A stretch of DNA of 64,000 nt from Eledone cirrhosa (GCA_964016885.1 OZ024746.1:72726001-72790000), one strand, 5' to 3'; shown: positions 1-62,586, counted from the stretch's first letter. Notes: generated by a model from the sequence alone, not told the origin. Made by a program: numbers and translations.

Positions 1-569
1 TATATATTATATATTGGTCATGTTGCTGATACAACAAAAAGCACTGTCCACTTTTAAGTAATTGTGACTTGACATAAATCACCTGGTCATGCTGTATAAA
101 GTGGTCTACTGGTGATTAGATGAATGAAAAAGTACCCAGCTGTAAAAACCAAACCAAAAACAGTTCTGTATGAGCAAGACAGTTCGGAAATATCCCCAAG
201 AAACAAATTCTCTTAGGAAAAAATATTAAGTAAAACAAGTAAATGAAAATAGGACCACCTTTATATTTGTAGAACTGTCACAGCAGGACTTAGGTGACGA
301 GGGGAGGGCTGTTCTCTAAAAATCGGGACTGTTGAAGCAGGAAGAATGGAAATCATCATAATCATAGTACATAACTTACTATTGCCATTGAAGGATAGTT
401 TGTATATACATACATAAAAAAAAAAAAATCACATGTTGAAGTTATTTGATGCATATACACACACACAGCAAAAACCAACCAAACTGAGTGTTTTCTGTTA
501 TTAATTCTGGCAATATTATTACAACAATATGACCCTCCCCAAGTATATATATATATATTATATATACAT

Positions 570-917
570 GTAAAGTTATATTTAAAATTGTTGGGTTACA
601 ACTAGTAAATATTTATAACTGATATAAAAGCACTCGACAAATATTTGGAGTATATTTACAATATTAAATAAATGGAAAACTATATTTATAAAACCATATC
701 TATTTCATTATATATATTTCGGGGATATCATATTAACAATATGCTATGCCTTCATCAGACAAAATACAATATAAACAGTTTTATAAACAGTCTATAAAAC
801 TGTTTATATTGTATTTTGTCTGATGAAGGCATAGCATATTGTTAATATGATATCCCCGAAATATATATAATGAAATAGATATGGTTTTATAAATATAGTT
901 TTCCATTTATTTAATAT

Positions 918-921
<4 letters not shown>
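570..921 (-). mobile_element. Penelope-like fold-back element, family A copy 1 (palindrome plus tail, hammerhead in each arm)
   Basis: Near-perfect inverted repeat 657-785/793-921 centred on 789, unique tail 570-656, flanked by (TA)n on both sides. Related copies at 14501-14910 and 34276-34382. Confidence 0.8.
810..880 (+). ncRNA. Minimal type I hammerhead ribozyme (mirror copy on the minus strand at about 698-768)
   Basis: CTGATGA 820-826, imperfect stem II hairpin, GAAA 858-861, palindromic stem III TATATA, AUA cleavage triplet ending at 869. Downstream ATGAAATA pairs with upstream TATTTTGT (stem I, with G-U pairs). Confidence 0.75.
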
Positions 922-984
<63 letters not shown>

Positions 985-1310
985 ATGTGTTGAGGTGTCA
1001 ATACATATCTAATATGTATGATCATGTTTCTCAAAAACTCAAGGGATCTTGGTTCAGAGTGTTAATTATTGTTCAAATTTAAAAGATACATGTAGAGAAA
1101 GAGTCATATATTGTTTGAGAAACGTACCATTTGTACATGTACATGTATAGAGAGATCAAATAATATTCAGGAAAATGGTAAAAAGGTCGATGATTGTTTT
1201 ATCATCTTAAAGTATGTATATTTTCCTAAATATTATTTGATGTCTCTCTTTCTCTCTCGAGGTGTACAAAATGCTGTTTCTCAAACGATATATGACTTTC
1301 TCTCTATAAA
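985..1310 (-). mobile_element. Degenerate Penelope-like fold-back element
   Basis: Imperfect inverted repeat about 1093-1177/1219-1307, tail 985-1092 containing an ACTC...GAGT hairpin (1037-1060), flanked by (CA)n/(TA)n. The hammerhead core is decayed. Confidence 0.55.
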
Positions 1311-1332
1311 TTTATATTATATATATATATAT

Positions 1333-1516
1333 AGAAGTGGTTACACAACAGTTAGTTCACCATACCGAGAACAATTGTTTCACCTTAGCGGATCCTCAGC
1401 TCGTAATGGACCATTACGAGCTGAGGATCAGCTAAGGTGAAACAATTGTTTTCTACCTCATCCCATGGACTGAGTGCTCTACCACTACGGATATTACCTT
1501 CCAGTGTTCTACCACT
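1333..1516 (+). mobile_element. Short fold-back hammerhead element (family B)
   Basis: Palindrome 1370-1409/1411-1450. CTGAGGA (1421-1427), short stem II, then GAAACAATTG in both arms. The minus-strand copy has stem I CCATTACGAG/CTCGGTATGG. The tail contains TGAGTGCT, and the element is flanked by (TA)n. Confidence 0.7.
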
Positions 1517-2422
1517 ATATATATATTTATACACACACGTTTAGTAAAGAGTAAAAATTTACAGGAAAAAAAACAAAAACCCTATTACATTTATATATCC
1601 GTAATATCAAATGTTTATTAGGGATTTATAACACCAAAATATCCATAAAATTTGGCTACGAATTTGATATTCAGATACTAGCTTAAGAACATTATCAAGA
1701 TGACTCCTAATTAGTAATTATCCTTGCACTAATTAATTCTCATATACGAAAGGAATATAGCATATTACCAGTAACCATTTGGTTCCAGTAGTTAACTACT
1801 GCATTTTTATTTTTATTAAATAGACTGGAATGAAAATAGGATGTGATGATGGTCATACTTTTCTGTGAAATAAAATCGACGTGCAAAATCCACATCTACA
1901 AGAAATATATACCAAATCACTCCATACTGCGTTTAAATTGGGGACTGAATTTTAGCCCTTCCGTTACTATTTAAGTCTATTCAGAGCTGACGTACAATGG
2001 GGAACCTTTACGTGGTTGTAACTCGACTTGCTAGAAGTAGCAGCCAAATTCTCTTAAACCACACACCCTAAAAGTGACATTAAACCTTTTGCTAAAGCAA
2101 GGTACTGCCTATGATTTTCAAATCATTCTGAAAACTTTCAGGAATTTGGAGAAATCTAGTGATACAATCTATGTTCCAAACAGAAACTTAGCTAATAAAG
2201 GTTCTTACATAAAATTACGATAAATATAAGCACTTTAAAATAGTTTTCTATCATAGAATCAAGGATGGTTTGATAACAAAATGATTTTTTCAAAGTATCA
2301 CTGATAATAGATCTTGAGTTAAGGAAACGAAAATATCCCGTCCGATTTATGAGCCATTTTGCATGCACACACTCGTTCAAAATTAGGGAATCCTATATAT
2401 ATATATATATACACACACATAT

Positions 2423-2712
2423 ATAATCATGTTCCACAAAATAGAAAATATATTCTAAGTTTAATCGTGGATTCGGAGTTGAATAGGAGCTAGTACGTGA
2501 GTGTGTGTGTATATAATCATGTTCCACAAAATAGAATATATTATATACATATATATAAGTTTAATCATGCATTCAGAGTTGAATAGGAGCTAGTACGTGT
2601 GTGTGCGTGTGTATATATATATATATAATCATGTTCCACAAAATATATATATGTATATAAATATATTCTAAGTTTAATCATGGATTCGGAGTAGAATAGG
2701 AGCTAGTACGTG
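2423..2712. repeat. Three tandem copies of a 75-90 bp unit separated by (TG)n(TA)n
   Basis: ATAATCATGTTCCACAAAA...GAATAGGAGCTAGTACGTG at about 2423, 2513 and 2625. Confidence 0.85.
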
Positions 2713-2713
2713 A

Positions 2714-2744
<31 letters not shown>

Positions 2745-10284: not shown

Positions 10285-11178
10285 TTAACGCCTATAACCT
10301 CCCCCTCCCATACCACCACCACCACTGCCACCTTTACCGTAACCTCCACCGTAAGGACCACCAGTATTACGATGCGAAAAATTACCTTGTCTCTGGGCCC
10401 CACCGAAAGATCCGCTGCCATAATTGGATCCGAACCCGTTACCGTAGCCACTGTTGTAATCGTTGTTTCCGTAGCGGCCATCGCTGCCTTGGTAATATCC
10501 GCCGCCGTTGTTGTAACCACCACCCTGGCTCGATCCCCAGCTGCTGCCTCCGTAACCGCCGCCTCCACCGCCACCGGCGCGGCCGCCGCCTGGACGACCT
10601 CCGGGACCCCCACGACTGCCTACTTCGGTCTTCGATACAGCTTTCTTAACTTCGATGCTTTTCTCCCCTAAAGGAAACCTCTTCCTAATCACACACTTGT
10701 CTACACAGTCGAAATCATCAAAGGTTACAAAGCAGAAACGCTTCTGCTTACCAGTTGCCTTGTCCTTTATCATCTCCACTTTCTCGACTCTACCGTACGG
10801 GCTGAACAGATCACGGATTTCATCTTCAGTTGTTGTCTCCTCCAAGCCACCGACGAACATTTTCTTCACGGACGCCTGAGTCTCTTCCGATCCATCGCGA
10901 GGCATGGCGCGCTTCGTGTCTAAAGTCTTCTTGTCAAGCATGTGCGGTCGTTGCGACTGTGCCTTGTCTAGTTGTGCTGCCGACTGATAAGTGACAAAAC
11001 CGAAGCCACGGGAGCGGTTGCTTGATGGATTTTTCATTACCACGCAGTCCACCACTTCTCCCCATGTTTCGAAGTATTGGCGAAGAATATCTTCCGTCGT
11101 TTCATTATTCAGACCTCCTATGAAGAGCTTTCGGTATTTCTCAGCGTTGGGATCGTCGTTGCAGTAATTACTCATCAT
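10285..11178 (-). CDS. Heterogeneous nuclear ribonucleoprotein A1/A2/A3-like (hnRNP A/B family), intronless CDS, 297 aa
   Basis: RRM1 (RKLFIGGL, RSRGFGFVTY), RRM2 (KKMFVGGL, KRFCFVTFDDFD), EVKKA, and a Gly/Tyr/Asn-rich C-terminus with GGPYGGGY. First ATG at 11178 (MMSNYC), TAA at 10285-10287. The longer ORF-track start is not an ATG. Confidence 0.95.
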   Translation of the reverse strand: MMSNYCNDDPNAEKYRKLFIGGLNNETTEDILRQYFETWGEVVDCVVMKNPSSNRSRGFGFVTYQSAAQLDKAQSQRPHMLDKKTLDTKRAMPRDGSEETQASVKKMFVGGLEETTTEDEIRDLFSPYGRVEKVEMIKDKATGKQKRFCFVTFDDFDCVDKCVIRKRFPLGEKSIEVKKAVSKTEVGSRGGPGGRPGGGRAGGGGGGGYGGSSWGSSQGGGYNNGGGYYQGSDGRYGNNDYNSGYGNGFGSNYGSGSFGGAQRQGNFSHRNTGGPYGGGYGKGGSGGGGMGGGGYRR

Positions 11179-11667
11179 TTTGAATTTTGATTGTAATAAC
11201 TTTTCTTCAACAATGGAATATGGTTGAAATTCAACTTTGATGACGGAGTTTACAAAATTAAATATATATTTTCCTTTCTTCTTCAGCAATGTTATATTTG
11301 TTGACAGGAGGGTAACTATCAGTTGAGAAAATAAAAATCCACAGCGAATTTTCAAATTACAAATGAAGTATCCTTTATGGCTTGCTTGCTTCCGTAGCAG
11401 CAGAACAAGAAAAGCTAGTCAAAGCGAAAGATACGATTACTTTTTATCCTCTTCATTGTTCGTTGTATATTTTTTACTACCTGGAGACGTTTTGTAAATT
11501 TCCAACAGCTACAAAAAGAAACTAAGCTAATAATATTTTTTCTTTGCTCATTAATTAATTTTTTAAATTGATTTCGAATTTAATAAAATTACGAAAATGT
11601 AGGTCGTGATTAAAACACTAAATGACAATTTAAATAATCGCTGAACCACATGGTATGCAATGGAGCC

Positions 11668-11681: not shown

Positions 11682-13144
11682 TAAACAGCTCTGACCTCAC
11701 CTCCGAAGAAAACTTGATAAATGTGGAATATATTTTTTTTATAGATACGAAGGAAATGTTCGTTAATTTTTGTGGAAATTCTTTATCTCTCCCTAATTTC
11801 TTGATAGATAAGAGAGAAAAAAAAATAAATGGTGAGAACGACAGAAATAATTTTAATGGCCACTGGAGACGATGACTAAGATTGTCTAACTGAATGCTAC
11901 TTATTTTTCGAGTTCAAATCCAGCCCGAGTTAGCTTTTTCCCAGGTGACAAAATAAGTATCCCATTATATACTATTGTCGAGGCAATCGATTACACCTCA
12001 CTTCTATTCAGAATGTGAATACAGTGTTGGCCGAAAAATCACCATTTATATAATAAATATGATTTACAAAAGAAATAAAAATTTTATTAAAAATAAACGG
12101 GAGAAAACATCACACCACGACAGAAATGCTGATGGTTACCTCTAAATTTTTTTGAGGCAAGCCATAAGGCATAGGAATACGCAAACACCGACACGAACAT
12201 CACCTTATACTTCAGTAAGACAAGCCGCCAACAATGACAAAAATTTCGTTGTTAGCAGCTCCCAAGTGTATCCAAATTCACAGCGTAAAAAATGTAGATT
12301 ACCGATAAATCACAGTATCTCAGAAGTTTATTCTGTTTAGCTAGGGATGTATTGGCCTAAACAGTATCTTGAACGTATTCATTACGATCCTTATCATTAT
12401 GAGTTCAAATCCTGCTAGTGTCTAGTTTCCTTTTCATTCTGCTGGAGTCAATAAAATAAATAGCCAAACGTGTAATTTAACAACATTGAAGTATCGTTTC
12501 TAAGCGCTCTGAAAAAAGTACAAACGTTAGATTTTCTCCTTTCATAAATTTAGAACTGTCCATCTATCTCCAGTCAAATCTGATTACCTTTATATATGTA
12601 TGTATGTGTATGTTTTTTATATATGTATGCATGTGTATGTTTATACAGATAAGCATGGGTTTTCCGGCAACCTATTTAAAATATCAGCCAAATTTCCATC
12701 AAACCAAAAAAGAGTAAATAATGTGGTCATTCATACACAATCTGAAAGAAATACACGGAATTGTCATGGAGTGATAAATAAGAGATGACATGAGGGTTAA
12801 ACAACTCTTAGTTCAGTTTAAGAAATAGCAGTTAAATGTCTCTTGAATCATAAAAAATGCAAGGGTACAGGGATGGTCACAATAAAATGTATTCATCATA
12901 GTTCTACTCCCGGGACTGAACTGAAATTGAGAAAGAACAACAATGGTACATTTACAGTCAACTCAACAGGGTAAAAATAGCAGCGAAATTTCTCTTAGAT
13001 CTCACCCTGCTATCATCAAGAAGAAAGAAAATGCTGGATGGTATAGTCATACATAGGCTGTTAATAAAAATGGAATGGGCACCACTGAAACACCTTTCAT
13101 CATAGGTATATTCGATCAGAGCTAACCTAGGGTTAAGTTATATA

Positions 13145-13800
13145 TAATAGGATAAAGTAGTATAGTTAATGTGAAGCACTGTGAGATATATAATAAAAAC
13201 CCAATAAGTTTCAAAAAGCTGGTACAATGCGGTAGAAATATATAAAGGGCAAAGGAAGACAAATAAAACAAAGTAATGTTTTACCCAATAAAATTCAACA
13301 TGATATTTCAGGGTTAAACCCTCTTTTCAGGGTTAAACCAGAAATGGTTCAAAACAAACACAAACAATTGGTGTTCTTCCTTAACTGCTCAATGTGTCTG
13401 AAATACCCGTATGAAGTCGTTATAGTAGCCAATCTGCATTGTGCATTTCCAATCTGTTATTTATATGGGTTTTTTTTTCTGGTTGATGATAATGGCCTTT
13501 TTGATCCTTAAATTGCCAACAGTCCTTTCCATTGCCTCTGTGGTGACTTCAATGTCATGGCTGCAGCATGTCAAGATGTTTTTTAACAGAAGTTCTCGTC
13601 ATCATGTACTCCGTAATCCATATGTGCAGCATCAGGATGGTACTTCTGATGTATGAGGAGCTACATTTTTACATGTGACCTTGTAGACCATATACACTTT
13701 CATGCACACTTTGTTTTTTGTTTTATTTGTCATATTTTGCCCTTTATATAGTTATACTGCATTGTACTGGCTTTTTGAAATTTATCGGCCTTTTATCATA
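13145..13800 (-). mobile_element. 5'-truncated Penelope-like retroelement with GIY-YIG remnant, hammerhead and inverted partial pLTR
   Basis: Minus strand 13700-13455 reads (frameshifted) VYKVTCK..SSYIRSTI..LHI..KHL..NLRIKKAIII..KP.INNR, the PLE GIY-YIG signature. Hammerhead-like CTGAAAA-GAGGGTTTAACCCT-GAAA at about 13337-13294. Inverted repeat of about 85 bp at 13189-13273/13710-13800. (TA)n flanks. Confidence 0.8.
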
Positions 13801-13881
13801 TATATAATAGGAATTTAGATCGATATAATGGTAGATGTATAGAAGCCTCTGCAATGTATGTATGTGTGTATATATATATAT

Positions 13882-14219
13882 AAAATTTAGCATGACAAAG
13901 TTTCACATAAATGTTTTTATTATCAACCAATTACGTAGGTTTCACAGATGATTGGCTCAATGTCCATGTTAGATGTGCTTAATATGTAATTTGGTTTCAG
14001 CTGAATCATCCTGCCTGATCAATCCTGGAGTCGGGTCTATAAAATCAACATGGACCGTGAGCCATTCATCTGTGAAATATGTGTAATTGGTTGATAATCA
14101 ATAAAACATTCATGTGAAACTTCATCATATTAAACATATATATACACTCTGCTTTAGCATCAAGTGCTTGTATTAATACTACCTCCAGTAATCCACAAAA
14201 TTATTAAATAACTTAAACT
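13882..14219 (+). mobile_element. Penelope-like fold-back element, family E
   Basis: Imperfect inverted repeat about 13883-13970/14046-14135, decayed hammerhead (GAGCCATTCATCTGTGAAATATGTGTA), tail with CACT...AAGTGCT. A second partial copy lies at about 18995-19135. Confidence 0.6.
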
Positions 14220-14232
14220 ATATATATATATA

Positions 14233-14486
14233 TAGAAATTATATAGAAGACTCCAAACCTCGGAAGAAACAATTGTAAGCGAATAAATGATTTGAACAGA
14301 ACTTTGATTCATGTAATTTCTATATAACTGGTCTGTAGAACAACTGATGTTATTACATTGAGCTATTTATCTTACTGGTAATAAGGTAGTAATAAATTAC
14401 TGTCTTTCACTGTTTAGGGTTTAAAATATATATAACTATAAAAGGTTTTAGTATATACATAACCATAAATAGTATCCTTAATACTA
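14233..14486 (+). mobile_element. Penelope-like pLTR fragment, family F copy 1
   Basis: About 250 bp nearly identical to 49877-50121, with a truncated hammerhead (GAAGACTCCAAACC...GAAACAATTGTAAGC) and (TA)n flanks. Confidence 0.7.
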
Positions 14487-14500
14487 TATATATATATATA

Positions 14501-14910
14501 TATACGATATTAACAAATGGAAACTATATTTATAAAACCATATCTATTTTATTATACATATTTCAAGGATACCATGTTAAATTATGGTATGCTTTCCTCA
14601 GACAAAATACAATATATACCAGTTTTATAAATAAATATTGACATACCCTTTCAAAAGTAACAGTAGCATTTTGAAAGGGTATGTCAATATATATTTATAA
14701 AACTGGTATATATTGTATTTTGTCTGAGGAAAGCATACCATAATTTAACATGGTATCCTTGAAATATGTATAATAAAATAGATATGGTTTTATAAATATA
14801 GTTTCCATTTGTTAATATCGTATATTTACTCCAAATACTTGTCGAGTGATTTATATCAGTTATAAAAATATTTGCTTGTTGTATCCCAACAATTTAAATA
14901 GAACTTTTGC
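14501..14910 (+). mobile_element. Penelope-like fold-back element, family A copy 2
   Basis: Near-perfect inverted repeat 14501-14656/14669-14824, tail to 14910. Hammerhead CTGAGGA 14724-14730, stem II ATACCAT/ATGGTAT, GAAA 14761-14764, mirrored on the minus strand. (TA)n flanks. Confidence 0.85.
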
Positions 14911-14932
14911 ATATATATATATATATATATAT

Positions 14933-15702
14933 AAAATGCACACAATGCAGATCCTGGGTACACAAGAGATGTAGTGGGATAGCAGGCAAACTAACAGGTA
15001 GGGAGAAATATGTATGCAGTAGATGTACAGGGAAATTAGACAGTAGAAGTCGCACTGATAGACACATTTTTCAAATGCAAGAGAGCGCTATAGAAGTGGT
15101 GGATAGCTTCTGGTACCTAGGAGATCAGATTAGCATGGGAGGAGGGTGTTCCGAGGCCATAGTATCTAGAATAAGGACGGGTTGGAAGAAGTTTAGGGAG
15201 CTGCTTCCTCTGTTGACGAAGAAGGGTTTCTCCCTGCGTACGAAAGGCCGGTTGTATGATGCCTGTGTGAGGAGCGCGATGCTGCATGGTAGTGAGACAT
15301 GGGCAGCAACTGCAGAGGATATCCGACGACTGGAGAGAAATGAGGCAAGCATGCTCTGTTGGATGTGCGTGAACGGCCCAGCATAAATGTGTTGAGAGAG
15401 AAACTGTGTCTGAGAGGGATAGAATGTAGTGTACGGGAGAGGAGACTGAGGTGGTATGGACATGTGATGCGCATGGAGGATGACCGATGGGTGAAGAAGT
15501 GCCAGGAATTGCCAGTTGAAGGAAGACGTGGTAGAGGTAGACCACGAAAAACATGGGCGGAGGTGGTGAGAACAGACCTCAGATCATTGAAGCTCACGGT
15601 GGAGATGACGAGGGACCGTGACGAGTGGAGAGATGCTGTGCTGAATAAGACCCGTCCCACCCTTGCAAGCAGGGAAAAGCGGACGTAAAAATGATGATGA
15701 TG
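14933..15702 (+). mobile_element. RTE-clade LINE, 5'-truncated 3' end
   Basis: CTQCRSWVHKRCSG zinc finger, MLHGSETW, RLRWYGHVMRM, GRPRKTW, and a (GAT)n tail. Confidence 0.9.
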
Positions 15703-15716
15703 TATACACATATATA

Positions 15717-16056
15717 ATGGAGGCACATGGCTTAGTGGTTAGAGCATTGGCCTTGCAATCGAAAGGTTGTGAGTTCAATTCTCAGACCGGGTGATGTGTT
15801 GTTTCCTTGAGCAAGACACTTTATTTCACATTGCTCCAGTTTACTCAGCTGTAGAAATGAGATGATAGGGACTGGGGTCCCTATCATTCCACTGCAAAGT
15901 GGAGGTGCCACGACAAAAAAGCACCCAGCACTCACTATAAATGAGGTTGGTGTTAGGAAGGGCATCCAGCTGTAGAAATCAAGCCAGAATCAGTTCCCGT
16001 CCCACCCTTGCAAGCAGGGAAGAAGCGGACGTAAAATGAAATGATGATGATGAAAT
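15717..16056 (+). mobile_element. tRNA-derived CORE-type SINE with RTE-like tail
   Basis: A box TGGCTTAGTGG, B box GAGTTCAATTC, CORE-like CCTTGAGCAAGACACTT...CTGTAGAAATG, 3' end shared with the neighbouring RTE LINE, (GAT)n tail. Confidence 0.9.
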
Positions 16057-16059
16057 GAT

Positions 16060-16403
16060 CATTCATCATCATCATTTCATTTTACGTCCGCTTTTTCCCT
16101 GCTTGCAAGGGTGGGACGGGAACTGATTCTGGCTTGATTTCTACAGCTGGATGCCCTTCCTAACACCAACCTCATTTACAGTGAGTGCTGGGTGCTTTTT
16201 TGCCGTGGCACCACCACGACCACTTTGCAGTGGAATGATATGGACCCAGTCCCTATCATCTCATTTCTACAGCTGAGTAAACTGGAGCAATGTGAAATAA
16301 AGTGTCTTGCTCAAGGAAACAACACATCACCCGGTCTGAGAATTGAACTCACAACCTTTCGATTGCAAGGCCAATGCTCTAACCACTAAGCTATGTGCCT
16401 CCA
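16060..16403 (-). mobile_element. Same SINE family, inverted tail-to-tail copy
   Basis: Reverse complement of 15717-16056 with only a few differences. Confidence 0.9.
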
Positions 16404-16409
16404 TAAGGA

Positions 16410-17208: not shown

Positions 17209-18468
17209 TGGAAGCATGGACTAGAATCAAAAGGCCTTAAAATTAACTTGTCTAAGACTAAAGTTCTAGTATGTAGGAAGGTAAATAGGGCACTGGTCCC
17301 CTCTGGGAAATGGCCATGCTCAGTGTGTAGGAAAGGAGTAGACAGAAACTCCATTTTATATCCCAAATGCAAAGTATGAGTGCATAAAAGATGTAGAGGG
17401 ATAACAGGTAAGCTAACTAAGAACATAGATTTTATATGTGGCCGGTGCTCAGGTGCAATAAGTAGTAGCAAGTGCCCACAGGATACTAGCTCCTTCCATT
17501 GCCCAGATGGTTCTATAGAAATAGTGGACACCCTCCGTTACCTGGGTGACAAAATCAGCAGTGGCGAAGGGTGCTCTGAATTTACAGTAGCCAGAATCAG
17601 AACGAGATGGAAAAAGTTCAGAGAGCTTATACCACTATTGGCTGCTAAAGGTTTCTCTCTAAAAATGTATGATGCCTGCATATGAACAGCAATGTTACAT
17701 GGCAGTGAGACATGGGCATTGTGTGCAGAGGATCTGCGCAGACTGAAGAGGAACGAAGCTTGCATGCTCCGTTGGATGTGTAATAGTAATATACGTGAAC
17801 GGCAAAGCATAAATGAACTAAGTGAGAAATTAGGAATAAGAGGGATCAGATGCTGTTTACTCGAGAGAAGACTATGTTGATATGGTCACGTGATGCGCAT
17901 GAAAGACAACAGCTATATAAAAAAGTGCAGGGTGATCAAAATAGATGCAACCTACGGAGTAGGCAGACCCAGAGAAACCTGGGACACCTTGATAAATTCC
18001 GACCTTACACACTTACTCCAAGACAATGTCACTGGACCGAGATCTTTGGCGCTATGCAGTAATACAGAAGACCCACTTTGCCTAAGTACAAAGCGAAACC
18101 TACAGTCCATAGGCACCTCTTAACAAAAATACACCCCCGTCCCACTACCCCCACTTCATCCACACCACCTCTTTCGATGTAAAGTTATGTTGGTACCACA
18201 ACATCCAGTCCGAAATAAATGAGGTCGTGTAGGTGTCACGACAAAAAAACACACAGGCCACGCTGTAATGTGGCCGTGTAGGTAACACGGTAAAAACCTC
18301 CCAGTCTACACTGTAAACGTGGTTGGTGTTAGGAAGGGCATCCAGCCATAGAAAACCTGCCAGACAGTCCTATACGAGCAAGACAACTAATCTTGCCTCA
18401 CGTGGGACAATTCCCGTCTAAACCCATGCTAGCGTGGAAGATAGACGTTAAACGATGATGATGATGAT
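17209..18468 (+). mobile_element. RTE-clade LINE, degenerate 3' part with 3'UTR
   Basis: WKHGLESKGLKINLSKTK, WPCSVCRKGV, MLHGSETW, GRPRETW, several stops, (GAT)n tail. Confidence 0.9.
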
Positions 18469-18979
18469 ATAAAAATAACAAAATAAGATGCTGAGGTTAC
18501 ATAAATCATTTAATCATTATAATTATTTCCACGATTCTCCATGCAATCGAGAAGTCTTTCATGCATTTGTTGTTGTTATGAGAACGATATTCTCAGATGA
18601 TATCCGATTTATTTGATATGCCGCCGGCAGGAAAAAACGTCCTATTGCTTGTGTGCCCAGCAGACATATGCGGTGTACTCGGCAGACATATGTCTGCCGG
18701 TCACACGAGCAATAGGACATGTGTTTTTTACTGCCGGCGGAATATCAAATAAATCGGATATCATCTGAGAATACCGTTCTCATAACAACAACAAATGCAT
18801 GTAGAACTTCTCGATTACATGGAGAACTGTGGAAATAATTAAAAGGATTAAACGATTTATGTAACCTCAGCATCTTATTTTGTTATTTTTATAAAAATCT
18901 CCATCGTAACTAAAAACTGCGATTGTTGAGAGCTTTCTCCTGCTTGCTCCCGTTTTTACCAAAACAATCTCTTCTGAAC
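18469..18979 (+). mobile_element. Large fold-back element with tail (family H)
   Basis: Inverted repeat about 18469-18670/18688-18893 (about 200-bp arms, some mismatches), 85-bp tail with CTC...GAGAGCT, ending in (TA)n. No canonical hammerhead core was seen. Confidence 0.65.
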
Positions 18980-19989
18980 ATATATATATATATAAGGGAT
19001 CTTGAGCCAATCATCTGTGAAACATACGTAACAGGTTGATAATCAATAAAACATGTTAACAAAACTGTTTTTTCTTAATACATACACTCTACCTGTGCAT
19101 TGAATGCTCCTATTGGTATCACCGCCAAAAAATCATAGAATCATCATCATCATCACTGTTTAATGTCCATTTTTCCATGCTTGCATGGGTCAAACAAGTC
19201 ATCCACATTGAGAGACAAGTTTGGCCAGGATTGGCCACACCATACTTTGCTCTGACGAGCCTAAATTTGGCTGTGGTTTTTACAGCTGGATACCATTCGT
19301 AATACCAATCATCATCATCCTCATTTAAAATCTGTTTTCCATACTAGTAAGGATTGGATGGGTCTTCACAGGCCAAATCAGTACTCAAGCAGGGCGATTG
19401 ACCTCTCATTTGGGTCAGGAACCTGCATCTTGTCTACATACAATTCCACACTCTACTGAAGGCATTTTATCATGATACCAACACTAAGGAGGTTGTTATT
19501 TCTTTGACACAGCTAAAGGGTCCTCCTGTCCCTTTGTTTGGCAGGTTTTCTATGACAAGATACCTTTGATACAACTGAAGAGTCCTTCCGACTCTTTGTT
19601 TGGCAAGGTTTCTATGGTTAGATGCCCTTCCCATCACCAACCACCTTACAGCATGTTCAGGGTGCATTTATCATGAAGATCACTAACAATAGAGAAGTTG
19701 ATGTGGTGTTGGTACAACTGAAGTATCTTCTCAACTCTTATTGGCATGGTTTCAACAGCCGGGTCTAACCACCTTATAGGGTGTACTGGGTAAATTTTTC
19801 ATGGCACCAGCACTAGAGAGATTGTAGGTCATTTTGTGATGTGCTGAAAAGAAAGATAAGTATGATGTTATGTGTATATGACAAGTGTGGTAGGATCTGG
19901 CAAGATGATGAATAGGAGGGAAGGGTAGTCTTCTAGTAGTATGATGTGGGGTACACACTAATGTGTCAGAATTTTAAAGAGGGGTATAG

Positions 19990-22837: not shown

Positions 22838-23345
22838 TGTCAGTGTTGAACAAAAAGGTGACGTGGTTGCCTAGACACTGTAAGGCGTAATTCAGGCTGT
22901 TTGTTTGTTTACAAACAAACCAAGCATTATAATAAATGTTCGGTAAACCGATACGTGCATATATATATGTGTGCATGTATGTGTATATATACATACTACT
23001 GTACGTCTGTATACATATATGTATATACATATACATACATACATACTTACATTTAAGTAACTGCCGTACTAAGTGTGAGAAACGAAATTTCGTTTCATTC
23101 TATTCCATTTATCGTTTTCGGTGTGCCCGGCCGATTAAACTCACTCGATATGCAAATTAGGCTGCTCAGCCGTTAATATGCATAAGGAAAGTATATACCT
23201 TCAGACGTTCAACCATCTGGCAGGAAGGTATACGATGCTGACGATAGCTAATAAGCTTGAAACTAGTACATTGTTTCTGTGTCAGTGTTGAACAAAAAGG
23301 TGACGTGGTTGCCTAGACACTGTACGGTGTAATTCGGGCTGTTTT
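22838..23345 (+). mobile_element. Retrozyme-like non-autonomous element: 441-bp monomer plus about 65-bp terminal direct repeat
   Basis: TGTCAGTGTTGAACAAAAAGGTGACGTGGTTGCCTAGACACTGTA...GGCTGTTT at 22838 and 23279, with a hammerhead immediately before the second repeat. No coding capacity. Confidence 0.75.
23232..23274 (+). ncRNA. Minimal type I hammerhead ribozyme
   Basis: Stem I ACGATG/CATTGT, CTGACGA 23238-23244, stem II AGCT-AATA-AGCT, GAAA 23259-23262, palindromic stem III CTAG, GUA cleavage triplet ending at 23268. Confidence 0.85.
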
Positions 23346-29757: not shown

Positions 29758-30257
29758 TTGATAAAAATTTTGGTGTTATTATAGAAAGATACTTCCATTG
29801 ATTTCAGTGGGAAATAACATTTTTTCTTTCTTTTTCTTTGTGCTATCAATTAAACGTACCTCTTGCAAAGGACTTTTTCCCCCTGAAAAAGGAAAGGGGA
29901 GAGGGGCACCTTCAGACTCCCTCACTGAATTTTCTTTACCATTTCTTTTTTCCTTGTTTTATTTTCCTATGCTACCAACTAATCTTACCCCTGACCATGT
30001 TGCAAAGGACTTATTTTCCTCCCTTAGAAAACGGAGGGGGAAGAAATGAGGGGACTCTCAGACTTTTCACTCCCTCTTCTCCAGGGTTAAGATTAGGGTT
30101 AAGGCTGGGGTTAGACTTAGGGTTGAGGTTAAGGTTGGTGATGGGGTTAGGATCAAGGTTTGATAGCATATAAAAAAAGAAAGAGGAAAATAAATTATTT
30201 TCCACTGAAATCAGTGGGGGTGTCTTTCTATAAATTTACCAAAATTTCTTTTATCAA
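29758..30257. mobile_element. MITE-like element with long TIRs and internal degenerate TTAGGG repeats
   Basis: TATAGAAAGATACTTCCATTGATTTCAGTGGGAAATAA (from about 29780) is inverted at about 30194-30231, and the IR extends imperfectly about 20 bp further. GGGTTA-like repeats at 30084-30160. Confidence 0.65.
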
Positions 30258-30563
30258 GAGAAATGATTTTTTAAGTGAATTTTATTAACTGCTGACTGCC
30301 GATACACACAGAGACCAGTTTGCTTCAAATTATCTTTTAAAATCATTATTCGTTGATATACAGATTGGTTTAATATACAAACACACACATATACTTATAT
30401 ATATTTATACATACAGACTCTCGGGTCTTGAATAATCGTCCCCGCTACTGCTTATTCATTTTTCAGATTTCTAACCCCTCTGCTCTTATTCCAACCCCCC
30501 ACTGCTTATTAAATTTTGCTAATCTATCTACGGCAACAGTTTATTTTAATTGGTAGCACTTCT

Positions 30564-30636
30564 TCCTTGTGCAGGGGCCATGCTAAACTTCTCTGTATCG
30601 TTCCAATTTTAGAATATGTACTGCTGTAGCAGGATA
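30564..30636 (-). pseudogene. U6 snRNA pseudogene, 3'-truncated (about nt 1-73)
   Basis: Minus strand GCAGTACATATTCTAAAATTGGAACGATACAGAGAAGTTTAGCATGGCCCCTGCACAAGGA matches U6, including the ACAGAGA box and AGC triad. Similarity stops after CAAGGA. Confidence 0.92.
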
Positions 30637-34275: not shown

Positions 34276-34382
34276 ATACGATATTAACAAATGGAAACTA
34301 TATTTATTTCAGTTGAGTGCTTTATATCAGTTATTAAAATATTTGCTTGTTGTATCCCAACAATTTAAATAGAACTTTTGCA
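34276..34382 (+). mobile_element. Family A fold-back element, collapsed copy
   Basis: First 30 bp of the left arm (TATACGATATTAACAAATGGAAACTATATTTAT) joined directly to the tail (GAGTGCTTTATATCAG...GAACTTTTGCA). Confidence 0.8.
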
Positions 34383-35944: not shown

Positions 35945-36135
35945 GGCGGGGAATTGGCAGTATCGGTAGAGAGTCGGACGCCATGCTTTCTAGCATAGTT
36001 ACGTCCCTTTACAGTCTGAGTTCAAATACCGCCGAGGTTAACTTTGCCTTTCATCCTTCCGGGGTCGATAAAATAAAGTACCAGTAATGTACTGAGTAAT
36101 TGCTGGCCTTGTGCCTAAAGTAGAAACAATTATTA
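35945..36135 (+). mobile_element. tRNA-derived SINE, second family
   Basis: TGGCAGTATCGG A box, GAGTTCAAATACC B box, GGGGTCGATAAAATAAAGTACCAG core. Other copies at 36370-36545 (-), 37810-37980 (-, partial) and 51865-52052 (+). Confidence 0.85.
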
Positions 36136-36369
36136 CTGCATTCATTGATTGTGGTTAAAAAAAGGGAAGTAGGAGCTAAAGAGGGGTGGTGAAAGCAAAG
36201 GATAAGAAATAGGAGTATGAGGAAAGATAGAGAAGAAAGGGGTAGGTGAGCTAGGAGAACGAAGGAGTAATATGACGTCACGCCTGTAATTATAACTTCT
36301 CTTTCGTATTCGTTTAGTATTTCCATCCACAAAATTGCAGTGAATTATAATTACAATGTATATATAATT

Positions 36370-36545
36370 GTTTATACTTTTTGGCACAAGGCCAGCAATT
36401 ACTGGTACTTTATTTTATTTTATCGACCCCGTAAGGATGAAAGGCAAAGTTAACCTCGACGGGACTCGAACTCAGAATGGCAAGGGCCATAACTCTGTGC
36501 GTCAAAGCATAGCGTCCGACCCTCTACCAATACTGCCATTCCACC
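36370..36545 (-). mobile_element. tRNA-derived SINE, second family, inverted relative to 35945-36135
   Basis: Reverse-complement core CTGGTACTTTATTTTA...TCGACCCC...GGATGAAAGGCAAAGTTAACCTC. Confidence 0.85.
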
Positions 36546-37330
36546 ATATAATATGCAGACAAATGAAAGAATAAAACATTTATTATAATCGAGATTTGTT
36601 AACAAATGGTATCAAAGATCCCTTGTGATTCTTTTAACTGAAACAGCAACAATATAATATCTTTCTCTCTACACTTCGAATGACAATATTTTGATTTTTT
36701 TTTAAATTTCAAACCGTAAACTACACACACACATCGTCATCATTATCATCGCTTTTACGTTCTCTTTTTCACACATCCATATATATATATATGTTTATTT
36801 TTAGAATAAGTACTCTATGTTGAAAAGGGCGACTAAAAGGAAAAGCGTTCGGCCGTAAAGCTCTATCTCAATTTGTCCTGTCCTATCGAAAGCAACATGG
36901 ACAGCGGTCGTAAAAACGGTAATACATATGTATGTGCGTGTGCATCGACTCTATATTATATAATCATACTCTAGTGAATCCATCCTGATTTATATATATA
37001 TATATAAAACGAAGGAAGTGTGGTAAGGAACCAGATCGACCATAACGCACCAGAGTACTCAATACTTAGGGTAGTAGAGTGGGTAATAGGAAAATTTCTG
37101 AGACCAGAAATAGCCGTCGGGGTCTTGAACATTTTCCCATATAGATACACACACACACACACACACATACTAATTTTATGTGCGTGTGTGTGTCTTTCTA
37201 TCACTTTTTACGGCCCCCGCTTCTTTCTCTCTATATTATACATTCGAGATAACATTTTACACGTTTTTATTGTATGTAAACTTCCCCCGTTGTATTTGTC
37301 CCCCTGTGGCTAATAAAGAAACATATATTA

Positions 37331-45582: not shown

Positions 45583-45808
45583 TTAAACAGAAATAAGTGA
45601 AGTGAAATTGTTATGATCTGGGAGATGAGTGGAAGCAAACTCAATTTATAGGAAGCTTATATTTTTGCTGTAGTGGTTATATAATAATGATGTTGGTGGT
45701 GATGATAATGGTAATGAAGGTGCTGGTGGTGATGATAGTGAAGATGGTGGTAAGGAATATACCATTTCCACCAAGAAGGAAGAGGAAATCAATAATGGAA
45801 AAACTCAC

Positions 45809-45953
45809 GTAAAACTCCACAAAGCAGACTTGTCCCTCATCATTTTGGATCATGAACTGGAGAGAAAGGAAACCCCGTTTGTCAACCCTGATTGAGACAC
45901 GTGATGAAATTGCCAGTGCCTTCACTGAGGGCTTTAACAGGGAGATTTTATAT
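45809..45953 (-). CDS. RAD1: RAD1 exon
   Basis: ttcag|A TAT AAA...TTT TAC|gtgagt gives (R)YKISLLKPSVKALAISSRVSIRVDKRGFLSLQFMIQNDEGQVCFVEFY. Confidence 0.95.
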
Positions 45954-47624
45954 CTGAAGGAAGACAGAGTTTGGTCATTCAGTGTCTACAATTGAAAAAT
46001 ATTTTTTTACTATTGCTATAACTGATTACGATGTTTGGACAGCATATACACTACAAAACATTTTAAAACTCTCTCTCTCTCTAACTGATTTCAGTCTTTG
46101 GACTGTCAACACACTGGGGCACCACATTCAAAAGTTTTTACTTAATTATATCTCCATTGCCAAAGTACTTAGTACATGGTAAACAAGTACATAAGGATAT
46201 GTAGTTACTGCATCAAATGACATATCGTATTTTTTAGTTTTGATAAATGGTCCAGTAGTTTGATTAATGGAACAGCCTTAATGAAAATTAACATGTAAGT
46301 AACTGAGCATTCCACAGACACGTGTACTCTTAATGAGATTTGGCATGACAGTTTTTGACAAGGCTGTCCTTTTGATTTATAAGCACTGTCCATCCAATGG
46401 TCTTCCAAACAGTTTCCATCATTTAATATAAGTTTGCATGGGTTAGATGGGTTGTCATGTACGAGACAAGTCAGGTCAGGTGACAATGTCTTGATCACAT
46501 GGATCTGTATTTTGGCATGGTTTCTATAGCTGGATGCCTTTCCTAACACCAACTATGTTACTGCGTGGACTGAGTGCCTTTTATTGTGGCACCAAAACAA
46601 CCACTTTACAGGATGGACTGAGCGTATTTTGTCGTGTCACCAGCACGACCACCTCACCTTACAGGATGGACTGACACTCTTTATTTTCTCACCGGCAAAA
46701 CCATTCATTCATAAGATGTGGGTCAATCTAAAGCCATGGTAAATGACACACACACAAGATTCATTGCAGTGGAATCAAACCCAGAACTTTTATAATTGCA
46801 AAGTAAACATCTCAATCATTTGACCTTGCTGCATTCATCCCATGTCATCATCATCATCACCATCGTTTAATGCAACTTTACAGCATGTATTGAGTGCATT
46901 TATTGTGTTTATAACCAACACTAGGGAGGCTGTATATGTGTGTGTGGGTATGCATGCATGCTCTTGTGTTTATATATACTCTGATATACAAACTGGTGTT
47001 GTTTATGTTGCATCCCAGTAGTTTGACAAACAGAGATTGATAATATAAGTTCTGAGGTTGACTAAACAGTTGAAGGTAGTGCCCCAGCATGACTGTTTCC
47101 CAATGACTAAGACCAATAAAAGAATATATACATACACAGACATGTTATTTTCATTCCATGAGGTCTTACCATAATTTCTAAAGCGTTCTTGAAATAACAT
47201 ATCCACATTCTATGGGGCCACATCTGATGCTGTCAATTGCCTCACTAGTCATTATCATCATGTTTGTTGTTTAACGTTCGTTTTCCCTGTTAGCGAAGGT
47301 TGGACTAGTCACCTTAGTTATTTAAAAAAACACACCTTTAAGACTCTTATATAGATGTTGCTAAGTACATCAATGTTTTGGAGGAACGTCAAAGATTAGA
47401 GTTCTCTCCCTTGCAGCGGGACATGGCTTCAAGTGTAATAAAAAGTTAGTTTGACAGCTTTAAAACAGTTTTTAAAAAATATTTTCCAACCACATGTTCG
47501 AAAATCCATTGTTTAAAACCGTATAAGATACAGAGCCCACTTAACACATGGGTACAAAATCAAATATATCTGTATATATATAAACACAAACAAACACATA
47601 TAAACATGTATGTAATGTATGTAT

Positions 47625-48010
47625 AAATATGAAGATATGGTTCTACTTTCCATACTAATTTATTGAATCAAAAGTGTTTTGTACATTTTAACAGTGTCAG
47701 ATGACTGTTACATAAGAATAACTTGAATTGGACCTGTCTTCATCAGGCGTGTCTGACTGAAATTATTCTTACATAACAATTGCCTGGCACCTCTAAAATG
47801 TACATAATAGTTGTATTCAATAAACTGAAATATGGAAAAGTAGAACCATGTCTTCATGTCTATTAACATACCAATACTCCATCGCGTAATAGTCTACATG
47901 ATCCCAGATAAATACAACTGATGTGGAGTGTTTAAGGCTGATTACACTATAGTTTGTTGATTGCTATAATAAAATGTAAAAGTAACAATCACTTAAAATT
48001 AAGACAACGA
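47625..48010 (+). mobile_element. Degenerate Penelope-like fold-back element (family J)
   Basis: Imperfect inverted repeat about 47626-47722/47760-47862, CTGATGA on the minus strand near the centre, tail with ACTCCA...TGGAGT, TA-rich flanks. Confidence 0.6.
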
Positions 48011-48639
48011 TATGTATATATATGATGGCTGCAAACTCTGCTAAGAGTATTGCAACCACTTGTCAGATTATAGAGTTTGGTGCACTTTTAGGCTACGGCC
48101 AGCCACACGAACTTGTAACAGATCCTGAACAAGCAATGCCTGTGCTTTGAAGGTTTTTTAAGTGGGGAAAGGTCTTGCACTTGACCAATCCCACTCTCTG
48201 AGAATCGAAAACACTACCCGAAAAGGAGAACTGGTCAACATCATCGGATTTTTTTTTTCAGTTTCCCTCTCCTAGAAAGGTGTTGTAACAACAACTGGGG
48301 GCCTTTTACTCCCAGGTGGAAAAAAAAACAAAAAACAAAAAAACTACTATTTGGATGGCCGTTGACTCTGCTGAATTCCTCCGCCTTTGCCGGGTCTTGT
48401 ATTTCATCCCGCAGGGTGTCCAAATATCACCCTCCTCACCAAGCAAGCTTGGTGGGGTTGCCGGTCTAGTCGCCGACGACCCAACCATGTGACAGGTTGT
48501 ACTGAGTTACATGTTACCAGTAGCACTCGAAAGCGACCTGACATATATATATATATATATATGCATACACACATATATACGCAAGCATGGAAAATAGACA
48601 TTAAACAGTGATAAGATGATATATATATATATATATATA

Positions 48640-49504: not shown

Positions 49505-50121
49505 TTATAGAAATTATATAGAAATACAACCCCCATAATAATCTTGATTGCCCGCTTAAAGTGCTTGTATTACATATAACACCCTGCCGCACTATAATCT
49601 TATATAAACTAGACACATGTGCATGCCCCATGTGTAACTATTGCATACACTAACTACTTCAAACTATCCTCTTGCTTTATCTTCGTAAACTGCCAATGTT
49701 GTATTTTAACTTTAATTTTGTTCTTTGATATGACTTTAACCTTTGAATGTAAATTGCCATGCTAAATATTATAATGGATGTCAACCCACTGTGCATCAAT
49801 ATATACATATGTTTCTGTATGTCTCTTGTGTTGAAAAGGAGGTCATGTATGTAAATAACCATTGAAAAATTGCTCCGAAGACTCCAAACCTCGGTTTGGA
49901 AGAAACAATTGTAAGCGAATAAATGGTTTAAACAGAACTTTGATTCATGTAATTTCTATATAACTGCTCTGTAGAACAACTGATGTTATTACATTGAGCT
50001 ATTTATCTTACCGGTAATAAGGTAGTAATATATTACTGTCTTTCACTATTTAGGTTTAAAATATATATAACTATAAAAGGTTTTAGTATATAAATAACCA
50101 TAAATAGTATCCTTAATACTA
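49505..50121 (+). mobile_element. Penelope-like pLTR, family F copy 2, with hammerhead at about 49868-49920
   Basis: Stem I ATTGCT/AGC(G)AAT, core CCGAAGA (U4C variant), stem II TCCAAACC/GGTTTGGA, GAAAC-AATT-GTA, tail GCTC...GAGC hairpin, (TA)n flanks. Confidence 0.75.
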
Positions 50122-61600: not shown

Positions 61601-62586
61601 TACGCGCTGGTTTAGTCACATTCAGGCTGTAGAGGCTACCATTAACAACTTACCGGTAGTAATAAGTGCACTAGAGAGGATAATAAGTGGGGATGTTCAC
61701 AACACTGCTCCGAAAGTATTAGCCAAGGCCAGAGGTTTGCTACTAAATGTGAGCAAGTTTGAATTCATTTTCATGTTGAAGTTTTTTCAGAATTTACTTA
61801 AAAAGCTGCATTCTGTTTCACAATATTTGCAGAAGGAGGCTATCGACTTATATTCCGCGGACGTCATGATTAAAAATGTAGTAAAAGAAATTGACGACAT
61901 CCACTCAAATGAATATTTTGACCGAACATTATCAGACGCTAAAAATCTCGCCGAGCAATGTCAAGTTGAACCAGATTTACAACAGAAAAACGAAAAAGAA
62001 AAAAGAAGCGTTTTCATGACGAAAATGCCAGTGACAAACCTCATGAGATGATGAGTCAGCATTTTAAATGGGACGTTTATTTCACTATCTTAGATAGAAT
62101 CATTAGTAGCTTTAACAAACGTTTTGCCGACTTGCACGATCTAGTGAAGGATTTTTCGTGCTTGATACCGGTGCACTTCGACGACACATGCAATAGAGAG
62201 AGAATTGATAATCTTGTGAAATTCTACGAGGGTGACATCGAAAATGACACTATCTTCCACGAGTATTTATCATTCAAAAATTTTTACAAGGAAGTGTGTT
62301 TAGATAAATCCATATCGAGTTCTGAGATCGTTCCGTTTATGACTTAGCTAGAGCCTATCCGAACGTGTTTGCCTTATACAAAATGTTCATAACTATTCTG
62401 GTTAGCTCGGCACAGGCTGAGCGAACCTTCAGCAGGCTCAAACTGATAAAGACTTATTTGCGTAGTACCATGAGTGAAGAGCGGTTGAATGCTCTGGCAA
62501 TGATGTACATAGCGCGAAAACTGGCTGAAAAAATTGACTTCAGCATCGTGATTGAAAAATTTTCTAAAGTAAAACATCGCAAATAG
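58611..62586 (+). pseudogene. hAT (Tip100/ZMYM1-like, DUF4371-type) transposase pseudogene, interrupted by a LINE and frameshifts
   Basis: MLPKKTYKTGATKRRE..|..IKKCHLITSF, LAKQGLAVRGH..GNFIELL, YSVIVDSTIDISH, YVHCCAHNLNL, TRW, AERTFSRLKLIKTYLRSTMSEERL. Confidence 0.93.
58682..60007 (-). mobile_element. Young 5'-truncated RTE LINE nested in the hAT transposase
   Basis: Uninterrupted 307-aa ORF 59084-60007, complete 3'UTR and (GAT)n tail. Confidence 0.95.

What the first reader, a model, noticed from the sequence alone, without database searches (positions are those of the whole stretch)
13145..14910. Second stack: a GIY-YIG relic ties the palindromes to Penelope-like retroelements
Seen: four different elements in 1.8 kb, each bounded by (TA)n. 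The first retains a decayed GIY-YIG C-terminus followed by a hammerhead-like motif, a tail with CAGTGCT (13175-13181) and an inverted terminal copy. This is the same plan as the non-coding palindromes, but with coding sequence as the spacer. Inference: the palindromes are extreme truncations or derivatives of PLEs, and each insertion leaves (TA)n that attracts the next, building insertion hotspots.
Basis: partly seen in the sequence, partly recalled or inferred. Interest (0 to 1): 0.7.

Follow-up and report, generated by a model that had tools for sequence, protein, structure and literature searches.

The report
Stack of truncated Penelope-like retroelements
Four short, unrelated remnants of Penelope-like retrotransposons sit end to end in a TA repeat; this is known behaviour for these elements, though most of them also share a small RNA hairpin that may mark where copying starts.

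Summary
The anatomy is real. Four mutually unrelated elements lie between (TA)n runs, plus a 62-nt extra piece. Element 1 (minus strand) has 83%-identical inverted arms, a 40-nt tail and a dead endonuclease relic over three frameshifts. No database search confirmed the relic (power was low), but a motif chain read from published PLE alignments scores 46.8 against a best of 37.5 in 100 shuffles. Its hammerhead is degenerate. The better link to Penelope-like elements (PLEs) lies in the palindromes: element 4 has an intact hammerhead in each arm, and element 3's relative a near-intact one, in Hydra-clade format. Element 1 looks Nematis/Neptune-like and is not their parent. An inverted 5'-truncated copy, a one-sided tail and (TA)n preference are published PLE traits. 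Clustering exceeds uniform use of TA sites (P 0.0001-0.03) and mostly fits self-reinforcing targeting (P 0.008-0.28); cause is not shown. Possibly undescribed: a bulged hairpin, RCTC-stem-loop-TN-GAGY, at the arm/tail boundary (5 hits against 0.46 expected), seen by eye in 4 of 6 published Hydra consensuses. Verdict: new members of a known kind, with one testable lead.

The parts
13139..13146 (.). (TA)4 run at the tail end of element 1
13147..13186 (-). Element 1 tail, 40 nt, with CAGTGCT at 13181-13175; has CTC and AGTGCTT but lacks the inner stem of the shared hairpin
13186..13274 (-). Element 1 direct arm (3' end of pLTR), ending in TATAT
   Evidence: 74 of 89 columns identical to the inverted arm
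13294..13337 (-). Degenerate minimal type I hammerhead: core CUGAAAA at 13330, 4-5 bp stem II, GAAA, palindromic AUAU, C at 13302; overlaps a 15-nt direct repeat (13306-13320 / 13325-13339)
   Evidence: score 8, rank 12 of 125; absent from strict scan
13420..13706 (-). Dead C-terminal GIY-YIG endonuclease relic, three frameshifts; linker Cys, VY, two Cys, YI, second His and Asn kept; Gly, Arg, first His and Glu substituted; stop at 13422-13420
   Evidence: layout compared by eye with Fig. S2 of PMC8557442; no database hit
13715..13803 (+). Element 1 inverted, tail-less copy of the 3' arm; outer end runs into the TA run 13798-13806
13807..13868 (-). Extra 62-nt piece, possibly a solo tail of a family related to element 1 (weak)
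   Evidence: local score reached by 202 of 5000 random window segments
13883..14218 (+). Element 2: palindrome (arms about 13883-13970 and 14047-14144, 84%), decayed hammerhead halves (core-like 14015, GAAA stem III to 14085; not significant), hairpin 14146-14165 with one mismatch, 74-nt tail; shorter relative at 18995-19130
14235..14484 (+). Element 3: 10-11 nt inverted head, hammerhead cut inside its core and with a 5-nt stem II deletion, hairpin 14330-14363 with one mismatch, long tail; 97% identical to 49877-50119, which keeps a near-intact hammerhead and hairpin
14505..14910 (+). Element 4: near-perfect palindrome (arms 14505-14656 and 14669-14828, 98.8%) with 82-nt tail; relatives 567-926 (-, 89%) and 34279-34381
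14717..14779 (+). Intact type I hammerhead of element 4 (mirror copy 14608-14546 on minus): core CUGAGGA, long stem II, GAAA, 8-nt stem III, UA site at 14772, 7-bp stem I
   Evidence: 5 strict hits in window, 0 in 20 shuffles; ranks 1-2
14828..14847 (+). Bulged hairpin ACTC-CAA-loop-TTG-TC-GAGT at the arm/tail boundary of element 4
14911..14933. Longest TA run of the stack (23 nt); a 5'-truncated LINE fragment of the RTE type (family name recalled; PHD match) starts directly after it

Best explanation
The stack is a pile of independent, heavily 5'-truncated insertions of several PLE families into one TA microsatellite. SHOWN: four unrelated units, each with a fixed 3' end, a one-sided tail and an inverted copy that starts at an internal TATA-like point 0-6 nt before the tail; hammerheads 52-60 nt upstream of that point in elements 2-4 or their relatives; an EN-like relic in element 1. 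FROM LITERATURE: a PLE protein nicks AT-rich DNA on both strands, extends both, and starts reverse transcription at two internal RNA sites that delimit the tail (PMC11167929). INFERRED: both nicked TA ends prime cDNA, one at the tail end and one at the arm/tail boundary where UAUA in the RNA can pair with the TA primer; the two cDNAs stop early and are joined head to head. The spacer is simply the excess of the longer cDNA: 12 nt in element 4, about 76 nt in element 2, about 440 nt reaching into the EN gene in element 1. The split TA run is left on both sides and is reused, so the pile grows outward. Element 1 is Nematis/Neptune-like; elements 2-4 are Hydra-like by hammerhead format and tail hairpin. 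All are now inert; the EN has lost catalytic residues.
For: Arms and tails. EN motif chain 46.8 vs shuffle best 37.5, 0 of 100, with Cys-x5-VY and Glu-x11-Asn spacing equal to the Nematis/PNL2_SM rows of Fig. S2 (by eye). Strict hammerheads 5 in window vs 0 in 20 shuffles; 4 are the two arms of element 4 and of its relative. Ranks 1-7 and 9 of 125 relaxed sites fall in PLE-like units. Three family-A copies share the tail end and the start of the inverted copy but have different neighbours, so they are separate insertions. Published plan: PMC8557442 section 6 and 11, PMC3846280. Clustering vs uniform P 0.0001-0.028. Identity rises outward (84%, 97%, 99%) and TA runs lengthen outward (14, 16, 20, 23 nt).
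Against: No database match for the EN in 8 searches; simulated power for the single frame sent to phmmer was 1 of 50 at 40% and 15 of 50 at 50% identity, so the blank is weak but real. The motif chain was written after seeing the sequence. Element 1's hammerhead fails the strict test and its core overlaps a 15-nt direct repeat; element 2's scores 3 (rank 33, chance level). Rfam finds no hammerhead. No RT sequence and no autonomous partner in the window. Target-site duplications cannot be read in TA runs. Element 3's 97% is a copy-to-copy figure, not an arm clock, and arms can be homogenised by conversion. The self-reinforcing model is itself rejected in 2 of 6 settings (P 0.008, 0.033).
Confidence: 0.8

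Rival explanations
1. Elements 2-4 are dedicated non-autonomous, hammerhead-bearing families (retrozyme- or SINE-like) mobilised in trans by a PLE protein, rather than one-off truncations of autonomous elements. This changes their status, not their PLE link.
For: No coding trace in 350 nt upstream of the hammerhead of element 3's relative; element 3 and that relative share the same odd head; the family-A arm folds into an extended rod around the hammerhead (-31.3 kcal/mol); non-autonomous PLE derivatives are published (PMC8557442 section 10 passage; bioRxiv 10.64898/2026.07.22.740005).
Against: Family-A copies end at different 5' points (spacers 12 nt, 1 nt, and a 30-nt stub), as expected of fresh truncations; PLE 3' UTRs can be several hundred nt.
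Confidence: 0.35
2. Stacks form because the PLE nuclease or RNP homes to the tail motif of an earlier insertion, across families, not merely to TA.
For: In both stacks tails point outward and, on each side with two or more datable units, the least diverged unit is outermost; collisions exceed the self-reinforcing TA model in 2 of 6 settings; the tail was needed for EN recognition in D. virilis Penelope, as cited in PMC11167929; a secondary Pen2a insertion in Pen3 is reported.
Against: Orientation pattern alone has P 0.19-0.31 and 0.5 and was noticed after the fact; two stacks only; PMC3846280 found no cross-mobilisation between PLE types in a rotifer.
Confidence: 0.2
3. Clustering reflects one long ancestral TA array, or local survival and the choice of this window, with no feedback from earlier insertions.
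For: Ancestral TA lengths are unknown; other repeats also abut TA runs (3 of 24 (GAT)n-tailed 3' ends within 12 nt, against 4.2% of the window); the window was selected for having stacks.
Against: Age and TA length rise in order along the stack, which a single old array would not require.
Confidence: 0.3
4. The inverted copy arises by self-priming on an antisense template (model in PMC3846280), not by priming from both nicked strands.
For: Head-to-head geometry fits it (passage).
Against: The inverted copy starts at a fixed point next to the tail in all families, matching the second RT start site shown in vitro.
Confidence: 0.2
5. The palindromes are MITEs or foldback DNA elements unrelated to PLEs, and the EN relic is a chance pattern.
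For: No database hit for the EN; TA is also the target of Tc1/mariner-type MITEs (established knowledge).
Against: One-sided tails, variable centres, intact hammerheads (0 in 20 shuffles) and the EN chain (0 of 100) in the right order and strand.
Confidence: 0.06

Closest known systems
Canonical EN+ Penelope-like elements, Nematis and Neptune clades (PMC8557442; sections 6, 11, 12, 15 and Fig. S2 text read)
   Same: Element 1: C-terminal GIY-YIG with CCHH positions and the last linker Cys, hammerhead in the 3' pLTR, adjacent inverted 5'-truncated copy, 40-nt one-sided tail, microsatellite site. Spacing from Glu to Asn equals the Nematis and Penelope/Poseidon rows, not the longer Neptune/Naiad rows (by eye).
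   Different: Only the last 290 nt of the ORF survive; no RT, so the clade cannot be fixed; catalytic residues lost; hammerhead degenerate.
Hydra-clade PLEs (PMC8557442 section 11, Files S1, S2, S7)
   Same: Elements 2-4 and relatives: (TA)n sites, hammerheads with an 8-nt stem III and UA/UU site as in File S2, and the tail hairpin seen by eye in Hydra-2_Amil, Hydra-2_Ajap, Hydra-1_Ajap and (variant) Hydra-1_Crog.
   Different: No coding sequence left; five short motifs from the window's elements had 0 exact matches in the supplement; outer pair is A-U in most window copies and G-C in the published ones.
Poseidon element PAc of Anolis, in vitro (PMC11167929; parts 1-2 of 4 read)
   Same: Two RT start sites delimiting a tail, AT-rich nicking and extension on both strands explain the geometry seen here.
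   Different: Different clade; its start lies in an AC-rich stem-loop; its structure figure is a picture and could not be compared.
Non-LTR retrozymes (bioRxiv 10.64898/2026.07.22.740005; abstract and section 14 read)
   Same: Short non-coding hammerhead elements related to PLE pLTRs.
   Different: Retrozymes are head-to-tail tandem monomers of one family; these are dispersed head-to-head palindromes of different families.

Membership tests
Penelope-like elements (element 1) | Telomerase-like RT domain | not testable with these tools
   Element is truncated at 13716; no PLE RT motif elsewhere in the window; no eukaryotic genome collection available
Penelope-like elements (element 1) | GIY-YIG endonuclease at the ORF C-terminus | tested here: met
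   Motif chain 0 of 100 shuffles, stop 14 codons after the Asn block start; database searches blank at low power, so met by custom test only
Penelope-like elements (element 1) | Hammerhead in the pLTR | tested here: inconclusive
Penelope-like elements (element 1) | Inverted 5'-truncated copy and 30-40 nt one-sided tail | tested here: met
   89-nt arms, 40-nt tail
Penelope-like elements (elements 3, 4) | Type I hammerhead near the 3' end | tested here: met
   Element 4 intact in both arms; element 3's relative has one core mismatch
Penelope-like elements (element 2) | Type I hammerhead near the 3' end | tested here: inconclusive
   Score 3, rank 33 of 125; only the GAAA/stem III half is recognisable
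Penelope-like elements (elements 2-4) | Inverted copy plus one-sided tail | tested here: met
   Elements 2 and 4 full palindromes, element 3 a 10-11 nt head; tails 74-159 nt, longer than the usual 30-40
Nematis clade (element 1) | CCHH motif, reduced Cys linker, compact EN end | tested here: inconclusive
   Last linker Cys, both Cys and second His in register; first His substituted; rest of linker truncated; comparison by eye
Nematis clade (element 1) | RT phylogeny | not testable with these tools
   No RT left
Hydra clade (element 1) | Absence of CCHH in the EN | tested here: not met
   Two Cys inside the core and the second His are present
Naiad clade (element 1) | N-terminal EN followed by CxC and RT | tested here: not met
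   EN is followed by a stop, hammerhead-like motif and terminus
Hydra clade (elements 2-4) | RWK/DKT RT motifs, CxCX5C linker, EN without CCHH | not testable with these tools
   No coding sequence remains
Hydra clade (elements 2-4) | Canonical hammerhead and (TA)n site | tested here: met
   Met for 3 and 4; neither feature is exclusive to Hydra
Non-LTR retrozymes | Head-to-tail tandem monomers of one family | tested here: not met
   Neighbours are unrelated
MITE / foldback DNA transposon | Symmetric terminal inverted repeats at both ends, fixed length | tested here: not met
   One-sided tails; family-A copies differ in length

The most novel reading that the evidence does not exclude
Sequence-unrelated PLE families, from this genome to coral, sea cucumber and copepod Hydra elements, keep one cis signal at the start of the tail: a bulged hairpin RCTC-stem-loop-stem'-TN-GAGY(RCT), just 3' of a UAUA priming site and 40-60 nt after the hammerhead. 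It would bind the PLE protein and fix the second RT start site, much as a template boundary does in telomerase RNA. Read as DNA, the same signal would draw nucleases of other families to the TA run beside an old tail, building outward-growing, head-to-tail stacks of different families. I put the conserved hairpin alone at about 0.55 and cross-family homing at about 0.2.
Probability: 0.3. Interest if true: 0.65.

Novelty: new member of a known kind. Interest (0 to 1): 0.38.

Why it matters
The main finding is ordinary for specialists: inverted truncated copies, tails and TA preference are standard PLE anatomy. It helps annotation, since short hammerhead palindromes like these are easily filed as MITEs or unknown repeats, and it names a source of long perfect dsRNA of the kind ADAR edits heavily (palindromic repeats as ADAR targets: PMC5625713 passages; editing not tested here). 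The hairpin matters more. How PLEs make their inverted repeats, tails and microsatellite bias is named as an open task in PMC8557442 section 15, and PMC11167929 leaves the protein-binding motif unmapped within 172 nt. A 20-35 nt conserved structure at the exact start of the inverted copy gives a direct mutational target.

Tried and rejected
Database confirmation of the EN failed throughout: Pfam on three single frames (0 of 3) and on a 68-residue read-through, PHROGs (0 of 3), PDB, word-indexed homologue searches (1, 1 and 94 candidates, none scoring; only the longer length class was searched). The one phmmer hit (E 7e-6) was rejected: five summed stretches in a fungal DUF7104 repeat protein, 7 of 26 identities. 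A language-model look-alike search of the relic was not obtained, so remote similarity by that route is unchecked. No better PLE ORF exists in the window to seed a search. Rfam gave only hairpin-type miRNA matches below gathering score in the stack; rejected as artefacts of palindromy. Minimum-energy folds of seven hammerhead candidates gave weak z-scores (-2.4 to +0.7) and mostly not the hammerhead fold. The longer hairpin descriptor that also demands the downstream RCT was only weakly enriched (2 vs 0.27, 4 vs 1.2, 9 vs 4.3; 15 shuffles). The 62-nt piece resembles element 1's tail only at P about 0.04; clustering was therefore run with and without it. Co-mobilisation of the stack as one unit was rejected because relatives have other neighbours. 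Left out of the 14-unit count: the inverted repeat at 29758-30257 (not TA-bounded), the tandem units at 2412-2722, and palindromes made of LINE/SINE sequence (15717-16404, 18468-18893, 35950-36542). The host was not identified: the hnRNP-like ORF is not in the protein collection as read; a cephalopod host is my recollection from repeat content only.

Full report
Setting. The window is AT-rich animal DNA full of LINE and SINE fragments, with an RRM-containing ORF at 10285-11418 (-), a Rad1 exon near 45.8 kb and a U6 copy. The host was not identified.

Observation. Between 13139 and 14933 lie six bounding TA runs of 8, 9, 14, 16, 20 and 23 nt, separating four elements and a 62-nt piece. The four share no sequence (best E 0.064). 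Element 1 is on the minus strand: inverted arm 13803-13715, spacer, direct arm 13274-13186, 40-nt tail. The arms match at 74 of 89 columns. Element 2 is a palindrome with 84% arms and a 74-nt tail. Element 3 has only a 10-11 nt inverted head and is 97% identical to 49877-50119. Element 4 is a 98.8% palindrome with an 82-nt tail and has relatives at 567-926 and 34279-34381.

The endonuclease relic. The spacer of element 1 holds GIY-YIG-like blocks in alternating frames, with three frameshifts. Every database search was blank or spurious. A simulation showed why this is weak evidence: the single frame sent to phmmer would pass E 0.001 for 1 of 50 relatives at 40% identity and 15 of 50 at 50%. 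I therefore scored a five-block, frameshift-tolerant chain of 22 conserved positions read from Fig. S2 of PMC8557442. The best site in 128 kb of both strands is 13706 (-), score 46.8, next best 30.9; 100 block-shuffled windows gave a mean best of 28.4 and a maximum of 37.5. 18 of 22 positions match; the four misses are the YIG glycine, the arginine, the first histidine and the glutamate, each one base away from a codon for the expected residue. The pattern was written after I had seen the sequence, so the test is somewhat generous. The EN ends the ORF, which excludes Naiad; it keeps CCHH positions, which excludes Hydra; the cysteine six residues before VY and the short glutamate-to-asparagine spacing equal the Nematis rows by eye. 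Without RT the clade stays open.

Hammerheads. A strict type I descriptor finds 5 sites in the window and none in 20 shuffles: both arms of element 4, both arms of its relative, and 23238. With one core mismatch there are 12 against 2.2, including element 3's relative at 49875. Their 8-nt stem III and UA site match the Hydra entries of File S2 (by eye). Element 1's motif, 90 nt after the stop, has a good stem II, GAAA and a four-base palindromic stem III, the form described for metazoan PLEs in PMC4209133, but G8 is A, stem I is out of register and the core overlaps a 15-nt direct repeat. It ranks 12 of 125 in a relaxed scan; element 2 ranks 33 and is at chance level. Rfam detects none. So the palindromes carry their own PLE signature, better than element 1 does, and element 1 is a cousin from another clade rather than their parent.

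The tail motif. CAGTGCT is one form of AGTGCT, found in 4 of 8 tails examined (4 of 500 random draws as good). It is the 3' side of a bulged hairpin, RCTC-stem-loop-stem'-TN-GAGY. This descriptor gives 5 hits in the window, all in TA-bounded PLE-like units (651-, 14828+, 37080-, 47876+, 49966+), against a shuffle mean of 0.455 and 0 of 200 shuffles reaching 5. Four of the five were seen by eye before the descriptor was written; 37080 came first from a scan. The inner stems differ in sequence (CAA/TTG, TACT/AGTA, CATC/GATG, TGTA/TACA) and the outer pair switches between A-U and G-C. Elements 2 and 3 each have one mismatch; element 1 lacks the inner stem; the units at 985-1306 and 23053-23300 show none. 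The hairpin starts 52-60 nt after the hammerhead site (element 4, 55; relative 651, 57; 49966, 52; element 2, 60, first two corrected by one base by hand), and the inverted copy begins 0-6 nt before it at a TATA-like point. In File S7 of PMC8557442 the same layout is visible by eye in 4 of 6 Hydra consensuses; the other two end soon after the hammerhead. Searches returned no paper describing it; subscription papers, Repbase entries, picture-only figures and bioRxiv supplements were not seen, so it may be known.

Mechanism. PMC11167929 shows a PLE protein nicking AT-rich DNA on both strands, extending both, and starting reverse transcription at two internal sites that delimit the tail. Applied here (inference): a TA run is self-complementary, so both nicked ends can pair with UAUA in the RNA; one cDNA starts at the tail end, the other beside the hairpin; both stop early and are joined head to head. 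The alternative is self-priming on an antisense template (PMC3846280).

Clustering. I counted 14 PLE-like units in the window, 5 in this stack and 3 at 567-1515. Collapsing TA runs gives 43 sites (>=4 units) or 24 (>=6 units). Uniform allocation is rejected in all 6 settings (P 0.0001-0.028); a model in which each insertion adds one target gives P 0.008, 0.033, 0.065, 0.084, 0.19, 0.28. Identity and TA length rise outward along elements 2-4, and tails point outward in both stacks, but these patterns are after the fact and weak alone (P 0.19-0.5). One selected window cannot separate feedback from a long ancestral array or survival. Other repeats also touch TA runs (3 of 24 tails).

Comparison and verdict. 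Inverted 5'-truncated copies, one-sided tails and (TA)n preference are described in PMC8557442 and PMC8969392; non-autonomous hammerhead derivatives of PLEs in bioRxiv 10.64898/2026.07.22.740005. What I saw: PMC8557442 abstract, passages, sections 6, 11, 12, 15, supplement parts 1, 2, 52-55 and three term searches; PMC11167929 parts 1-2 of 4 and a supplement search; PMC3846280, PMC4209133, PMC8969392, PMC5625713 passages; the preprint's abstract and section 14. The stack is a new example of a known kind. The hairpin is the only part that might be new and is directly testable. Interest 0.38.

Noticed in passing
window 544-1526: A second stack of three units: family-A palindrome with intact hammerheads (tail left), an old palindrome 1093-1306 without recognisable hammerhead, and an 87-nt hammerhead palindrome 1367-1453 whose tail follows a short deletion.
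   Followed up: partly
window 37007-37146 (-): A 140-nt TA/CA-bounded unit with a short inverted head and a perfect tail hairpin at 37080; found by scan, no hammerhead recognised.
   Followed up: partly
window 47583-48014 (+): Old palindrome (82% arms) with a tail hairpin that has a 36-nt loop; CUGAUGA-like word in the spacer.
   Followed up: partly
window 23229-23278 (+): Isolated intact type I hammerhead just before a LINE fragment; no tail hairpin found.
   Followed up: partly
window 14685-14805: The family-A arm folds into a long rod that extends hammerhead stem I by about 25 bp, like a retrozyme or an older inverted duplication.
   Followed up: partly
window 49505-49876: Non-coding 350 nt upstream of the family-C hammerhead, containing AAGTGCTTGTATT as in element 2's tail; element 3 looks like an internal deletion of this form.
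   Followed up: partly
window 14934 and 17210: Two LINE fragments of the RTE type begin directly after a TA run; LINE/SINE palindromes occur at 15717-16404 and 18468-18893.
   Followed up: no
window 2412-2722: Three tandem units of 100-113 nt separated by TA/TG runs; unclassified.
   Followed up: no
window 10285-11418 (-): Uninterrupted ORF with two RRM domains and a glycine-rich end (hnRNP A/B-like by recall), about 2 kb from the stack; possibly a retrogene.
   Followed up: partly
window 29758-30257: Inverted-repeat element with degenerate TTAGGG-like repeats inside, not TA-bounded; probably a MITE.
   Followed up: no
window 30535-30632 (-); 45677-45985 (-); 60563-62586 (+): U6 snRNA copy (Rfam 70 bits), a Rad1 exon (Pfam E 1e-10) and a broken DUF4371 transposase-like gene.
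   Followed up: no
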